Shown here one piece after another: positions 17,066-63,145 of a stretch of 64,000 nt of DNA (position 1 is its first letter; every line of letters begins with the position of its first letter). The notes under the pieces are model-generated. The model made no database searches. It was not told the DNA's origin and saw nothing but the letters and a program-made list of their open reading frames with translations. Origin of the DNA: Octopus sinensis (lineage: Eukaryota); contig NC_043010.1 of the NCBI RefSeq assembly GCF_006345805.1, forward strand, positions 39,370,001 to 39,434,000. The letters run 5' to 3'. Both the position numbers and the translations under genes were made by a program.

Positions 17066-17344
17066 TCAGCAGTCTAATTTTTATCACGTGCTGTTATTGC
17101 ACAACCGAGCGTAGCTCTGTGTGCCCTGGGTATAGGCTGTGGTTTGTTGTGATGCTCTTATTTTTACTGTATTGAGTATTTTACGTAGGATGTGTGCAGT
17201 GCTTAGTAATGCTATTTTCTGTATGTTATATATATATATGTATTTATTTTATAGAAGGAGCTTCAACAGGACTAGAACTGTTTCATTCTCTGCCATGTAT
17301 TGAGTACCTTATTTACTGTGGTTAACCCCTACTCAACCCGGGAC

Positions 17345-17379
<35 letters not shown>

Positions 17380-30469: not shown

Positions 30470-31742
30470 ATTGTCTGCATGCTTGTCTGTTTATCTATCT
30501 ATCCATCTATCTATCTGTCTATCTATGATTTTATCATAAGGATTCATTAGGATCAGGTCACATCAATTTAAAGGACGCCAATAATAATAAAAAAGGACAT
30601 GTATATGGTAGATATAGAAGCATCTAATCCAACTTAAACATCAAATCCGATTCAGGGTGGGTCATTGTTGTGACCTAGATATATAAAAATAAAATCGCGT
30701 TTAAAATTTAGCACTGCCGTTTATTTTACTTAAATTTATTTAATGCACTCATAAAAAGATTACATAATACTCCATCATCAGGTCAAATTCTAAACAGGTA
30801 TGATTTTGCATAAGGTCATAGCTGGGCTAGTAATGCGTTTAAGTTTTACATTCGAATGTATGGGAGAATTTGAATGTTTGTTTACTTCATTGACCTTTTT
30901 AAATTTGCTGCGACATTAAACATGGTCATCACACATTTGTTGATATGGGCAAGCTCTATGAACCTAGGTCAGTAAGTCTCAATGAGGAAAACTAAGTGAC
31001 ATTTTCACAGAGTAGAAAGAAAGAGATCATACAAATATGCAATCTAAATTCACTTACCTAAATTAGTTTATGGTGTAATACTGGCACGACTCATCTAAGC
31101 ATCAATAGACGGAGCAGTTCCAGAAGTTGTGATTAAGAAGTCGTTAAAATTATTCTCAATTAAAGGGGTAAAGTCAAGGAGTTCATTGACCACAAACAAA
31201 CAGTCGTCAGCGTTCACCCCCTTCCTACTTAAATACAATAGAAGCGTACACGCACAGACACACACACACACACAGACACACACACACATACAAACAAACA
31301 CACGCACACACAAATTATATATATATAGTGAGAGAGAGAGAGAGAGAGGCACGCATACAGGGAGAAAGAGAGGGAGAGAGAGGCATACACACACACTTAT
31401 CACAGTACATATAACGACAGCTAAGCATGTAACTACCATGAATATGATATCTATGTGTATATATACAAATACACACGCATACATATACATCTATACGCAT
31501 GTGTGTATACGTGTGTGTGTGTACTAACAATATGTATATATCTGTGTGTGTGTGCGCGTGTGTGTTGTGTACATATAGATGCAGAAATAAACAAGTGGCT
31601 TTTGAGTTGTTTTGACTCTTGTTTCTAGCAATAACTGGTGCTGGTCAGTACCCTCCATCACTTTTGTGACCTTTATTAATTTTGCTTTTAGGTTCAAATG
31701 CTAGTAAGCCACCCATTTAATTTGTTATATATATATATATAT

Positions 31743-31877
31743 GTAGGTCCCGGGTTGAGTCGGGGTTAACCACAGTAAATAAGGTACTCAATACATAGCA
31801 GAGTAAATTAATTTATTTTATAGAAGGAGCTTCTACAGGACTAGAACTGTTTCATTCAAAAGAAATCATCAGGAAGC
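31743..31877 (-). mobile_element. 135-bp (TA)n-embedded hammerhead-bearing element (Penelope pseudo-LTR-like)
   Basis: (TA)n on both sides. On the minus strand the hammerhead is followed by AATAAA. A rearranged second copy lies at 17242-17348. Confidence 0.75.
31829..31877 (-). ncRNA. Type I hammerhead ribozyme motif with intact core
   Basis: GCUUC-CUGAUGA-uUUCuuuuGAAu-GAAA-CAGuucuagucCUG-UA-GAAGC. Stem I GCUUC/GAAGC, stem II UUC/GAA (U-U at its base), stem III ACAG/CUGU, GUA cleavage triplet. Confidence 0.8.
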
Positions 31878-32244
31878 ATATATATATATGCATACAAATA
31901 TATTTGTGTGTGTGTGACAAACATATTTCAACTAACCTAAATTGTGATTGGGGGCACTAAAGTTCATTAATGTAATTGTCAGCATGTATGCCATGGAGAC
32001 ACATGGAGCACGTTCGCGCCAGCCTGGAAGCATTCGCGCTTTGTTTTTCAATCTCGCCATTATTTACGAATACATCGCCTGCCGTAATGTTGGTGTTTTG
32101 ACCACCTACGATTATGATCATGATACAGGTAACGCTTTTCCAATATTCATATGGCTTTCAAACTTCTATATCAGTTGACATTTTCTCAACTATATCTATG
32201 ATTTTTATGCCCTTCAACACCGTTGAGTGTTCACCAATATATGA

Positions 32245-41499: not shown

Positions 41500-41935
41500 A
41501 AGGCAACGAGCTGGCAGAAACGTTAGCGCGCTGGGCGAAATGCTTAGAGGTATTTCGTCTGTCTTTACGTTCTGGATTCAAATTCCACCGAGGTGGACTT
41601 CGCCTTTCATCCTTTCGGGGTCGATAAATTAAGTACCAGTTACACACTGGGGTCGATATAATCGACTTAATCCGTTTGTCTGTCCTTGTTTGTCCTCTCT
41701 GTGTTTAGCCCCTTGTGGGTAGTAAAGAAATAGGTATTTCGTCTTCCTTTACGTTCTGGGTTCAAATTCCGCCGAGGTCGACTTTGCCTTTCATCCTTTC
41801 GGGGTCGATAAATTAAGTACCAGTTATACACTGGAGTCGATGCAATCGATTTAATCCCTTTGCCTCTCCTTGTTTGTCCCCTCTATGCTTAGCCCCTTGT
41901 GGATAATAAAGAAATAAGAAACGTTAGCACGCCCC
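41500..41935 (+). mobile_element. SINE family B concatemer with an alternative tail
   Basis: Head aggcaacgagctggcagaaacgttagc, then two core+tail units ending agccccttgtgg..taaagaaata, then a restart gaaacgttagcacgcc. Confidence 0.88.
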
Positions 41936-45663: not shown

Positions 45664-45766
45664 CCGGAGTAAACACATAAATGTGAAACAAGATGGAAAA
45701 AAGAGTACTCAAATACCAGTGGTAGAGTAATATGCTTTATTTAAAGCAGCAGAAATTCAACAAAAT

Positions 45767-45804
45767 CTGTTACTCCGAGTTTCTCGTTGCCGTTCATCAG
45801 ACAG
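45767..45804 (-). ncRNA. Minimal type I hammerhead ribozyme motif with intact core
   Basis: CUGU-CUGAUGA-aCGgcaaCGa-GAAA-CUCgGAG-UA-ACAG. Stem I CUGU/ACAG, short stem II with a GNRA loop, stem III ACUC/GAGU (probably dimeric), GUA triplet. Confidence 0.75.
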
Positions 45805-45820
45805 TTTTTTCTAGCAAAAT

Positions 45821-45857
45821 CTGTCTGATGAACGGCAACGAGAACTCAGAGTAACAG
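45821..45857 (+). ncRNA. Minimal hammerhead motif, inverted partner copy (one A missing from GAAA)
   Basis: CUGU-CUGAUGA-aCGgcaaCGa-GAA-CUCaGAG-UA-ACAG; stem I extends to caaaaucugu/acagauuuug. Confidence 0.6.
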
Positions 45858-45889
45858 ATTTTGTTGAATTTTCTGCTGCTTTAAATAAA

Positions 45890-45961
<72 letters not shown>

Positions 45962-55896: not shown

Positions 55897-57050
55897 CAGA
55901 TTAGGCTTTTGGAAAACAAAAATGTTCTAACATCGGGTTACAGCAAGTAACCGTAGATGCCAACAACCCTTCTAAGTATCTTACTTGTCCCTAATAATAC
56001 TGTTTTCTGGAGTTGTACTAAACTATTTTTTCTATACCTCTCATATTAAGTTTGTCATCATTTGTGAATGCAAAGTCAATTATCTGGCACTGTTTATTCT
56101 CTTTATCTACTACTAAATCAAGCCTTAATATGTCAGTCTGAATGTTCAAGTCCCACAGCAACTTATATTTCTTACTTTCTAGCACATTACTAGGTTCATA
56201 TTCATACGATTTTTCAGTATGGTAAAATCTTAGCTTTCTACAAAATTCCCTGTGAATTACTCTGCCTAGGATGTCTTTTCTTGTATTCTTTCTTTGCCAG
56301 CATGCTATATTCACTTACTATATGAATAACACTTTCTTCTTTTGATTTGCATAATCTGCATAGCGAATCTATTTGGTTTTTGTCTATCTTGCCTTTTATC
56401 CAATTAGTTCTTCATGCCCGATATTGTGCTGCTACTAGCAAGCTTTCTGTCTCCCTTTCCAGCCTTCGTTTTTGCAAACATAACCATGTCTCACTACCAC
56501 TATTTGCTACAACTATCTTTGGGAATCTACCTGCCAGTCAAATAACGTTCTTCTTTATTTTCGGATTTCAACTTCATTCACTATTCCCTACATAGGAGTC
56601 TATATCTGCTATAGCTAACTGTACGTAATCTTCTACTAATATTAACCCTCTTCCACGTTCCTTTTTAGGTAAGTATAATCTTTCTACACCACCCCTTGGG
56701 TGGAGACCTCCATTCATATTGAGTTCTTCTTGGTTTTTCTGTCTAGCTTTGCTAATTTAGATTTTGTCCAATCTTCAAAAGCTGCTGGGTATCTAAGTAA
56801 TGATACCTTCACTAGATTCGGATCATTTAGCTTTGATTCATAAACATCCTCATTCTTCTGACGTACTCCTTCTCAATATTGTCTTTCATTTCCGTCAGAT
56901 TCTGGTAATCCTACATACATATAACTCTCACCTCCTTTCAATGATTTTAATGTCTGGCCATCTGATAATTGGATGCCTTCCCTGTTGACTACCTGTCTTC
57001 TTCTCATGACTAATATTGCACACTTATCCATGCCAAATTCCATGCCTATA
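55897..57050 (-). mobile_element. R4/Dong-like retrotransposon fragment (RT C-terminus, zinc knuckle, REL)
   Basis: Minus strand IGMEFGMDKCA, GGLHPRGGVERLYLPKKERGRGL, and LLWDLNIQTD..DLVVDKENKQCQIIDFA. (ATT)n at the 3' flank. Confidence 0.85.
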
Positions 57051-57773: not shown

Positions 57774-58712
57774 AGAGAGCGAATGCAGATATCGACAAAG
57801 CCCTGACCCATCAATGGCTAATGGCCTCTGGCTTAAAATCTGAAACAGAGGGGTTTATCATAGCAGCTCAAGATCAATGCCTACCAACAAGAAACTACCA
57901 GGCCAACATATTAAAGATCAGAAGCAGTCCAACGTGTCGTGTATGCAAGCAACAAAATGAAACCATTGACCATGTGGTCTCCAAGTGCAGTCTTCTAGCG
58001 CCTACAGAGTATCTCAACAGGCACGATAGAGCTGCACAATATATTCACTGGGTAATCTGTAAAAACCTGGATTTGCCCCATGAAAAAAACTGGTGGGAAC
58101 ACAAACCACCCCCAGTGCTTGAAAATGACCATATCTCACTCCTCTGGAACTTCACCATTCAAACTGACAGGAAGATAGATGCAAATAGGCCAGACATAAT
58201 ATTGAAAGACTTCAAACAAAGAACATGCCTCCTCATTGATATGACTGTCCCAATCGATATAAACGTATCTGTCAAGACCTACCAAAAACTGAGCAAATAT
58301 AAAGATCTTGAAATAGAAATCAGCAAAATGTGGAAGCTGAAGACTAAAACAATACCTGTTGTCATAGGTGCCCTGGGAATGATAGCAAAAGGGGCTGATA
58401 GCTACCTAACTCAGATACCAGGAAACCCAAAAATGTTCAAAAGATAGTGCTCATGGGAACTGCTCATATCCTACGCAAAATACTCTCTATGTAATCTCAA
58501 GGTTTAAAACAAACATAATTTTCGGTTAAAAAAAAAAAAAAAAAACCTTTTTTTTTATTTTAGACATTCATTAGTACAACATCCCCACCCCCCAAATATA
58601 TGGCACACTAGGCATAACCACAACATGAACTTCCAAACCTGTTGTCTCTTGAGGTCTCTGGGTGAGACTTGGAGCCAACTTGTACAAATATAAAGCAAAA
58701 GTCAAACATAGA
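57774..58712 (+). mobile_element. Young 5'-truncated R4/Dong-like retrotransposon inserted in (AAT)n
   Basis: (AAT)n on both sides; ORF C-terminus plus a 3' UTR of about 220 bp. Confidence 0.9.
57776..58494 (+). pseudogene. C-terminal CCHC zinc knuckle plus restriction-like (PD-D/ExK) endonuclease of a non-LTR retrotransposon
   Basis: LKSETEGFIIAAQDQ, CRVC..ETIDHVVSKC, RHD, RPDIILKD..CLLIDMTVP, K..KYKDL. A frameshift near 58435 precedes QKIVLMGTAHILRKILSM*. Confidence 0.9.
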
Positions 58713-61870: not shown

Positions 61871-63145
61871 TTGGGTCATCCCATAAATAATGCGGTTTTT
61901 TCAATTGCATGAACTAAAAGCCGGAGATGGTTGAATAAACTCCCTTCATCAACTTACTATAAAAGCAGGTAGTAATTTAATCCTGTTCTTATTCTTAGTA
62001 GAAGTTTCGAAGGGTGCAGTTCGATTTTAAGTTATTTTTTCAAAGGTATGATGGAAGTGGCAAAGGAGCACATTTGCCATATTTTACTTTATGGGTTCAT
62101 TAAAGGAAACAGCCCAACGGAAAGTGCGAAGAATATTAATGCAGTATATGGACATCGGACAATAAGCCTAAGCCAGTGTCAACGGCTGTTCCAGAAATTC
62201 CGAGCCGGAGACTATAGCTTAGAAGATGACCCTCGTCCGGGAAGATCTGTAGAGCTCGATGAGTTCGTCCTGCAAACTCTGGTGGAACAAAATCCCATCG
62301 TAACTGTTGAGGAACTAGCAGAAACGTTTGGATTTGGTAATTCAACCATTTATCGACACCTGAGTTCCATCAGAAAAGTCAGGAAAATGGGTTAGTTGGT
62401 TCATCACAAACTTTCCGAGTTTAATCGTGCGCAGAGTGTCAATGTGTGCTCTTCTTTGGTGTCATATCTCACGAATGAACCATTTTTGGACCTAATAGTG
62501 ACTGGTAACGAGAAATGGTTTCTCTATAAAAATGTCAAGCGCCGAAGATATTCAGTAAGGAAAGGAGAAACACCAACACTCCAGGCAAAAGAAGGACTTC
62601 CCCCATGTAAGGTGTTGTTATCTTTTAGGTGAGATATGAAATGTTTAGTCCACTTTGAACTTTTAAACCCAAAACTAACGATAACAAAGGTGATCTACTG
62701 CGAGCAGCTTGAACGGCTTATGTCAACGCTAGAAGAAAAACGACCATCCTTGTGTTGAAGACGATAGAGGTTCCATCAGGATAATGCGCGGCCACACTAC
62801 AGAGAGGATGATATTCCAAAAGGTGGAGTAGTTTGAATGGTGCACGACCTACCATATTCGCCGGACATTGCCCCACCTGATAAACATTTATTCCGCAGTC
62901 TTCAAAACCATTTGGACTGAAATAATAGGAATTCTGTAGATGAAGTCAGATCATTAGTGGAAGAGTATTTTCCATCATGGGCAAATGAAATTTTGAAGTG
63001 GGGCCTTGCAAGTCTAACAGACAGATGGGAGATCAATGTAGAAAATGAGAGTGAGTATATTTTAGATTAAAAAAGAACTTTGTTTATTTTAATTTTGAAA
63101 AATAAAAGAAGTATAACAAACTGCATTATTAATGGGATGATTAAA
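61871..63145 (+). mobile_element. Full-length degenerate mariner DNA transposon (about 1.28 kb)
   Basis: Imperfect TIRs ttgggtcatcccataaataatgcggttt / aaactgcattattaatgggatgattaaa, followed by TA, enclosing a transposase pseudogene. Confidence 0.92.
62048..63070 (+). pseudogene. Mariner (DD34D-type) transposase pseudogene
   Basis: HTH region, LEDDPRPGR, LVHHKL (WVPHEL), VTGNEKW (TGDEKW), FHQDNARPH and PPYSPDIAPPD. In-frame stops and frameshifts. Confidence 0.92.

What the first reader, a model, noticed from the sequence alone, without database searches (positions are those of the whole stretch)
31743..31877. 135-bp element that is little more than an intact hammerhead ribozyme plus AATAAA, inserted in (TA)n
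Seen: the minus strand folds into a complete type I hammerhead (CUGAUGA and GAAA core, GUA site, 5-bp stem I, closed stem III), followed about 10 nt later by AATAAA, with (TA)n on both sides. Known: Penelope-like elements carry hammerheads in their pseudo-LTRs, and retrozymes are non-autonomous hammerhead retroelements. Inference: this is a non-coding, microsatellite-associated ribozyme mini-element family that may be uncharacterised in this lineage. It could cleave any host transcript read through on the minus strand.
Basis: partly seen in the sequence, partly recalled or inferred. Interest (0 to 1): 0.8.

Follow-up and report, generated by a model that had tools for sequence, protein, structure and literature searches.

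The report
Ribozyme-bearing end of Penelope retrotransposon
This 135-base piece is not a stand-alone ribozyme element but the hammerhead-bearing end repeat of a common Penelope-like jumping gene, and it was likely copied from the first 135 bases of that gene's RNA into a TA repeat, as hundreds of similar stubs in this genome likely were.

Summary
The hammerhead-like motif, AATAAA and (TA)n flanks are present, but stem II is closed by U•U, not G–C, and Rfam gives no match. The 135 bp is identical to the end of a copy carrying a 628-codon RT/GIY-YIG-type frame. In a full-length copy it forms the end of both pseudo-LTRs, 46 nt before the ATG. So it is a fragment of an autonomous Penelope-like element (PLE), about 3,600 tail copies, not a separate family. 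Of 30 tail-anchored insertions, 15 extend into the body, 13 are short head-to-head pairs and 2 are solo. The 3' ends fit the two internal RT start sites described for PLEs. Less expected: short copies begin at the ribozyme's first bases, TATAAA sits 29 nt upstream in 62 of 69 longer arms, and 15 of 70 solo arms carry an extra G found in neither target nor element. The RNA therefore likely starts, capped, at the ribozyme and is copied uncut; cleavage-site junctions are rare. Cleavage of host RNA is unlikely. This scan found similar PLE ends on other DNA.

The parts
31878..31889 (.). (AT)6 target microsatellite at the 5' side of the insert
   Evidence: sequence
31829..31877 (-). Type I minimal hammerhead motif of the PLE pseudo-LTR: 5-bp stem I, CUGAUGA, U•U-closed 3-bp stem II with 4-nt loop, GAAA, 4-bp stem III with palindromic CUAG loop, GUA site (predicted cut between 31834 and 31833). 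The first base is likely +2 of the PLE transcript.
   Evidence: start site inferred
31811..31821 (-). AT-rich stretch containing AATAAA (31817-31812), where the 'short' arms of the family end; likely the first internal RT start site
   Evidence: interpretation from PMC11167929
31743..31810 (-). 68-nt PLE 'tail', which is 5' UTR of the ORF. It holds a predicted UACUC/GAGUA hairpin (motif shared with the sister family) and a predicted terminal G/C hairpin with an AC-rich loop; its end is likely the second RT start site.
   Evidence: continues into the ORF in L112 and L037; folds not better than shuffles
31726..31742 (.). (TA)n target microsatellite at the 3' side
   Evidence: sequence
17242..17348 (.). 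Second insertion of the same family: head-to-head pair of a tail-only arm and an arm starting inside stem II, so no complete ribozyme; TA runs on both sides
45665..45890 (.). Head-to-head pair of a sister PLE family with the same core but different stems, A•A closing stem II, long and short arm, in (TA)n

Best explanation
The 135 bp is the hammerhead-plus-tail end of the pseudo-LTR of an autonomous Penelope-like retrotransposon, and this copy was likely made by reverse transcription of the first 135 bases of that element's capped, uncut RNA into a nicked (TA)n tract. Shown: identity to ORF-linked and full-length copies, two alternative 3' ends (about +67 and +135), TA targets, and a sharp 5' edge at the ribozyme. 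Inferred: a TATA box in the pLTR starts the RNA at the A just before stem I. The GIY-YIG domain would nick (TA)n. RT would start at one of two internal sites and, when those sites lie in the 5' pLTR, would run off the RNA's 5' end, often adding a C opposite the cap. Two such cDNAs would usually join head to head through the self-complementary AGCT; here the partner arm is missing. When the same sites lie in the 3' pLTR, long body-containing copies would result. The stub has no promoter or ORF and is likely inert; its ribozyme would need a dimer partner or the PLE protein to cut, if it cuts at all.
For: Linkage: L112 reads partial copy, 135-nt unit, ATG at +46, RT/EN-type frame, 3.5-kb UTR, 135-nt unit, (TA)n. 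L114 has a 135/135 copy downstream of a 628-codon frame on the same strand. The protein has RT motifs, a four-Cys linker and LVY..YIG; its nearest Atlas clusters carry RVT_1 (40-78% of members) and GIY-YIG (21-47%) at scores 0.94-0.96; 151 matches in the genome. 3' ends: 99 short and 71 long arms of 198 end in TA runs, and 2 run on into the ORF (82), as expected from two internal RT start sites (PMC11167929). 5' edge: 64 of 96 arms start within 7 nt of CUGAUGA, only 2 at 9-40 nt. TATAAA at exactly -29 in 62 of 69 body arms across subfamilies with different spacers. Extra G: 15 of the 70 distinct places in the first 100 rows read (AT)n-G-AGCTTC (hand count) against 3 with a lone C; 5 of 22 by script. 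706 genomic arms have this G, and one viewed insertion has it on both arms (L198/199). Cleavage-site junctions number only 18 (66, 71) against 497 perfect palindromes. A sister family shows the same anatomy.
Against: No direct RNA 5'-end data. The start site also sits on a YAG after a pyrimidine tract in both families, and in D. virilis an intron ends at helix I (PMC4209133). In most head-to-head junctions the extra base can also be read as the partner arm's own base. In family 2 no TATA is conserved at a fixed distance. Pfam finds no RT or GIY-YIG domain in this protein and only one sub-threshold GIY-YIG hit among 21 homologues; no solved structure matches. The window copy itself starts at +2 without the extra G. 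Arms of one insertion are not independent, and the 96-arm sample was anchored on one subfamily (in the tail-anchored sample the short forms are 15 of 30).
Confidence: 0.85

Rival explanations
1. An independent non-autonomous ribozyme mini-element (SINE- or retrozyme-like) that has its own source copies and is moved in trans.
For: Short forms are about half of insertions (15 of 30); 497 share one perfect palindromic junction; solo TA-flanked arms recur.
Against: Minis occur in every subfamily variant of the autonomous element, lack the TATA region, have many different junctions, and are head-to-head rather than tandem. The solo form is 2 of 30 (86).
Confidence: 0.05
2. Same PLE origin, but the sharp 5' edge is a 3' splice site: the template is spliced RNA, as for the 5'-UTR intron of Drosophila Penelope.
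For: YAG or AAG directly before stem I, with a pyrimidine tract and a CTAA(A/G) or YTRAY-like motif upstream, in both families; the D. virilis intron end maps to helix I (PMC4209133; PMC2377424).
Against: No common exon-1 sequence precedes the edge; solo arms go straight from (AT)n and one G into AGCTTC (91, 94); the AG itself is kept; few ends at 9-40 nt upstream, where a branch point would stop RT (2 of 96); TATA spacing is fixed at -29 (82).
Confidence: 0.12
3. The edge is not an RNA end. It arises from ordinary truncation plus joining at the self-complementary AGCT, or from later deletion inside long inverted repeats.
For: AGCT and CTAG palindromes sit at the edge in both families; many junctions show 1-6 nt microhomology; the assembly has homopolymer indels that blur junctions.
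Against: It does not explain solo arms with a lone G between (AT)n and AGCTTC (15 of 70), arms with the G on both sides, or the fixed TATA distance.
Confidence: 0.08
4. The motif is a hammerhead-shaped RNA signal (protein binding or dimerisation) that no longer cleaves, because U•U or A•A replaces G10.1-C11.1.
For: U•U is invariant in 67-73 arms and A•A in the sister family; cleavage-site junctions are rare and explicable by 5-6 nt microhomology; catalytic mutants did not affect insertion in the Anolis element.
Against: All catalytic core positions are kept in two families with unrelated stems; shared variants fall on N7 and loop II; loop III is palindromic, with dimer -12.8 against monomer -1.4 kcal/mol.
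Confidence: 0.3

Closest known systems
Canonical EN+ Penelope-like elements with a Cys-rich RT-EN linker (Neptune/Nematis type; Craig et al. 2021, PMC8557442, passages read)
   Same: One ORF with RT then C-terminal GIY-YIG-type domain, partial tandems forming pLTRs, inverted 5'-truncated copy, tail at one end only, hammerhead in the pLTR, (TA)n targets
   Different: Tail is 68 nt (about 72 in the sister family) against 30-40; linker reads CxC-x5-C-x5-C, not literally CX2-5CxxC; 2.5-3.5 kb microsatellite-rich 3' UTR; clade not tested on a tree
Poseidon element PAc of Anolis (Frangieh et al. 2024, PMC11167929, parts 1-2 of 4 read)
   Same: Two internal RT start sites bounding the tail, AT-rich targets, both strands used, AC-rich stem-loop at the start site, uncut RNA as main template
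   Different: In PAc the ribozyme overlaps the start codon and the RT sites lie inside the ORF; here all three lie in the 5' UTR and the ribozyme is predicted to be the first sequence transcribed
Minimal hammerheads of metazoan PLEs (Cervera and De la Pena 2014, PMC4209133, parts 1-2 of 4 read)
   Same: Type I, 5-bp helix I, palindromic helix III suited to dimers, mostly found as dispersed single or opposite-strand motifs from truncated PLEs
   Different: G10.1-C11.1, called highly conserved there, is U•U here and A•A in the sister family; helix II is 2-3 bp instead of 6-8
Non-LTR retrozymes (PMC7229834, passages; bioRxiv 10.64898/2026.07.22.740005, part 1 of 5)
   Same: Non-coding, type I hammerhead, tied to PLE pLTRs
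   Different: Retrozymes are head-to-tail tandem units (about 300 bp) with canonical ribozymes and circular RNAs; these copies are solo or head-to-head stubs that start at the ribozyme

Membership tests
EN+ Penelope-like element | Single ORF with RT and C-terminal GIY-YIG endonuclease | tested here: met
   RT motifs and LVY..YIG in order; Atlas neighbours carry RVT_1 and GIY-YIG. Pfam and PDB sequence searches gave no significant hit
EN+ Penelope-like element | Partial tandem forming direct pseudo-LTRs around the ORF | tested here: met
   L112: direct repeat ending in the 135-nt unit on both sides of the ORF (36-38, 99)
EN+ Penelope-like element | Inverted 5'-truncated copy adjacent at the 5' end | tested here: met
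   L035, L114, L117, L119, L120; 13 of 30 tail-anchored insertions are short inverted pairs
EN+ Penelope-like element | [quoted passage not shown] | tested here: met
   68-nt tail on one arm only in paired insertions; longer than the 30-40 nt reported
EN+ Penelope-like element | Hammerhead motif in the pLTR | tested here: met
EN+ Penelope-like element | Retained spliceosomal intron in the 5' UTR (some families) | tested here: inconclusive
   YAG before stem I, but no conserved donor or exon-1 sequence seen
Neptune clade | CX2-5CxxC Zn-finger-like linker between RT and EN | tested here: inconclusive
   Four-Cys linker present but spaced CxC-x5-C-x5-C; that this spacing is Neptune-like is recalled, not from a call
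Neptune clade | RT phylogenetic placement | not tested
   No named reference PLE proteins among the 120 listed homologues
Metazoan minimal hammerhead | Complete catalytic core and NUH site | tested here: met
Metazoan minimal hammerhead | G10.1-C11.1 pair closing helix II | tested here: not met
   U•U in family 1 (65), A•A in family 2 (46)
Metazoan minimal hammerhead | Palindromic helix III allowing a dimer | tested here: met
   predicted cofold -12.8 against -1.4 kcal/mol
Metazoan minimal hammerhead | Self-cleavage | not testable with these tools
   needs an assay
Non-LTR retrozyme | Head-to-tail tandem units each with a hammerhead | tested here: not met
   Of 96 arms, one locus (L037) has two short direct arms; the rest are body-linked, inverted or solo
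Non-LTR retrozyme | Circular RNA intermediate | not testable with these tools
   only assembled contigs were available

The most novel reading that the evidence does not exclude
In these PLE families the hammerhead is the very first sequence of a TATA-driven, capped transcript. Hundreds of genomic stubs record the PLE reverse transcriptase starting at two 5'-UTR sites on both target strands, running off the RNA and copying the cap. A non-canonical hammerhead (U•U or A•A at 10.1-11.1) would then be a protein- or dimer-triggered switch that cuts off the cap about 45 nt into the RNA, or frees the unit for circularisation, while uncut RNA is the transposition template.
Probability: 0.35. Interest if true: 0.6.

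Novelty: new member of a known kind. Interest (0 to 1): 0.33.

Why it matters
As an object it is ordinary: one of thousands of truncated PLE ends. Its value is as a natural record of how PLEs transpose, which is still poorly understood. The copies support in vivo the two-start-site model shown in vitro for one Poseidon element. They point to a precise transcription start at the ribozyme and suggest that uncut RNA is the template. The 10.1-11.1 mismatch, kept in two families, is a cheap test of whether PLE hammerheads must cleave, and it may be one reason why Rfam misses them.

Tried and rejected
DNA search of the own genome with the 135 bp found nothing because common words are skipped; exact patterns were used instead. 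Rfam at gathering and E<=10: no hammerhead. Folding of the element, ribozyme and tail was not better than shuffles, so energy gives no support. Pfam and PDB sequence searches did not name the ORF (27, 34, 44, 45, 75, 96). The structure prediction had not finished and no fold search was run. Expression: no RNA holder listed on record. Four runs guessed to be RNA were contigs only, so they cannot show start, strand or level; their loose ends also cluster at the ribozyme's 5' edge, which DNA copies would equally give. AATAAA as poly(A) signal: rejected for these copies because short arms end in or at it. Ribozyme cleavage as the source of the 5' edge: rejected, since the edge is 44 nt upstream of the GUA site, 0 of 30 tail-anchored arms start at the site, and the 18 junctions there have 5-6 nt microhomology. 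Host gene: a scan of open frames of 90 codons or more showed only repeat-like frames on reading; short exons are not excluded. Lunse et al. 2017 on PLE hammerhead variants is not held (title only) and may already describe the 10.1-11.1 mismatch. Repbase and Dfam could not be searched. No look-alike in the scan index by sequence or in this genome.

Full report
Observation. The minus strand at 31877-31829 holds all hammerhead core positions, a GUA site, a 5-bp stem I and a 4-bp stem III; AATAAA follows 11 nt later and TA runs flank the 135 bp. A type I descriptor finds only this site in the window, against 0.03 per shuffle in 100 shuffles. The motif is not canonical. Stem II is 3 bp closed by U•U, the hammerhead fold (-5.7 kcal/mol) only ties with another fold (-6.0), the fold is no better than shuffles, and Rfam gives no hammerhead match. 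The host is likely an octopus; this rests on genome size (2.72 Gb), repeat content and a recalled SINE, and was not tested.

Copy number and parent. An exact 26-mer of the motif occurs 1,159 times in the genome and an 18-mer of the tail 3,642 times; reversed controls give 0. Following copies upstream led to a reading frame with 151 scored matches in the genome. Locus L112 is a full-length arrangement: a 5'-truncated copy ending in the 135-nt unit, an ATG 46 nt later, a 688-codon frame that shifts near its end, about 3.5 kb of microsatellite-rich UTR, the unit again, and (TA)n. L114 and L034 carry 135/135 copies of the window sequence, the former downstream of a 628-codon frame on the same strand. 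The protein has RT motifs, a four-cysteine linker and LVY..YIG. Pfam and PDB sequence searches did not name it (one sub-threshold GIY-YIG hit in 21 homologues). Its nearest Atlas clusters carry RVT_1 and GIY-YIG on part of their members, and 768 homologues were found, the 120 listed at 38-56% identity. Partial tandems, inverted truncated copies, a one-sided tail and a pLTR hammerhead are the PLE layout described in PMC8557442 (passages).

Forms of insertion. Of 30 insertions anchored on the tail, 15 extend into the element body, 13 are short head-to-head pairs and 2 are solo. Arms end either in the AT-rich stretch around AATAAA or 68 nt later; of 198 arms, 99 short and 71 long end in TA runs, 2 run into the ORF and 26 are other. 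Frangieh et al. (PMC11167929, parts 1-2 of 4) showed in vitro that a PLE protein nicks AT-rich DNA on both strands and starts reverse transcription at two internal RNA sites that bound the tail. The two ends here fit that, so the window copy is one long arm without a partner. About a hundred such solo arms exist (144 rows with repeats), against 497 perfect head-to-head palindromes.

The 5' edge. Of 96 arms taken from the first 100 listed matches, 64 start within 7 nt of CUGAUGA, 2 at 9-40 nt, 6 at 41-150 nt and 24 run further (paired arms are not independent, one subfamily). In body-linked arms TATAAA begins exactly 29 nt before the A preceding stem I in 62 of 69 cases, across spacers that differ. 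At that A the base before is T in 2,313 places, C in 316 (of 15 viewed, 8 are a subfamily's own base and 7 are partner-arm joins) and G in 706 (of 30 viewed, 27 are junctions to a partner arm, 1 a mutated body copy, 2 unclear). In paired arms that G is often ambiguous. In solo arms it is not: 15 of the 70 distinct places in the first 100 rows have a lone G between (AT)n and AGCTTC (hand count; 5 of 22 by script), 3 have a lone C, 5 have no extra base and 7, including the window copy, start one base later. An untemplated G at a fixed 5' end is what RT leaves when it copies a cap or adds a terminal C (my own knowledge). I infer a transcription start at the ribozyme. The rival is a 3' splice site: a YAG stands at the same place, and the D. 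virilis intron ends at helix I (PMC4209133; PMC2377424 passages), but no exon-1 sequence is seen.

Is the ribozyme under constraint, and does it act? Among 76 arms anchored outside the core, changes shared by three or more arms within the 49 nt fall on N7 and the four loop II positions only; 5 of 5 among 13 free positions has p about 7e-4. This test is post hoc, the copies are related, and the tail is about as conserved. Stronger: a sister family (2,910 matches; linked to frames 33-55% identical) keeps the core with unrelated stems, a palindromic stem III and an A•A closing pair, and shows the same paired short and long arms with an edge at stem I. Stem III is predicted far more stable as a dimer. 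Cut RNA seems rarely copied: 18 junctions lie at the cleavage site, 14 of 15 viewed being true arm ends there, all with 5-6 nt microhomology, and 0 of 30 tail-anchored arms start there. This agrees with the Anolis result that uncut RNA is the template and that the ribozyme needs the protein. Cleavage of host read-through RNA by this single copy is therefore unlikely, though untested.

Novelty. PLE hammerheads, dispersed truncated copies and opposite-strand pairs are in print (PMC4209133; review passages in PMC6765202). A repeat annotation of Octopus vulgaris lists 31 recently active Penelope-like families and does not use the word ribozyme in its main text (PMC13282606, passages; supplements not seen). 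Searches listed no paper on octopus PLE hammerheads or on a cap signature in PLEs, but Lunse et al. 2017, Repbase and Dfam were out of reach. Verdict: a real but ordinary fragment of a known kind of retroelement, with one testable addition, the likely start of transcription at the ribozyme, and one open point, the conserved 10.1-11.1 mismatch.

Noticed in passing
window 45665-45890: Head-to-head pair of a second PLE family (2,910 matches): 2-bp stem II with a GCAA tetraloop closed by A•A; a recurring junction fits an extra base at an initiator-like CCATTCT just before stem I.
   Followed up: partly
window 17242-17348: Second insertion of the same family with both arms broken inside the unit, so no full ribozyme.
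   Followed up: yes
L037:1234-1547: Two direct arms: the first starts at the ribozyme and runs about 65 nt into the ORF, the second is a short arm; both begin with an extra G.
   Followed up: partly
L035:1190-3900; L112:5042-8545: The PLE carries a 2.5-3.5 kb 3' UTR made largely of TA/TG/TATG repeats, so the element itself may spread much of the microsatellite-like sequence in this genome.
   Followed up: no
L188, L207, L211, L216: A loop III variant (one T to A change) that lengthens the palindrome and would add pairs in a dimer.
   Followed up: no
window 31805-31785 and the sister family's tail: Both families share a UACUC...GAGUA hairpin motif in the tail, a candidate binding site for the PLE protein.
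   Followed up: no
window 57776-58444 (+), 56021-56314 (-), 61976-62392 (+), 41548-41916: Frames that read like non-LTR retrotransposon C-termini and a mariner-type transposase N-terminus, and two tandem copies of a 184-bp SINE-like unit; names recalled, not searched.
   Followed up: no
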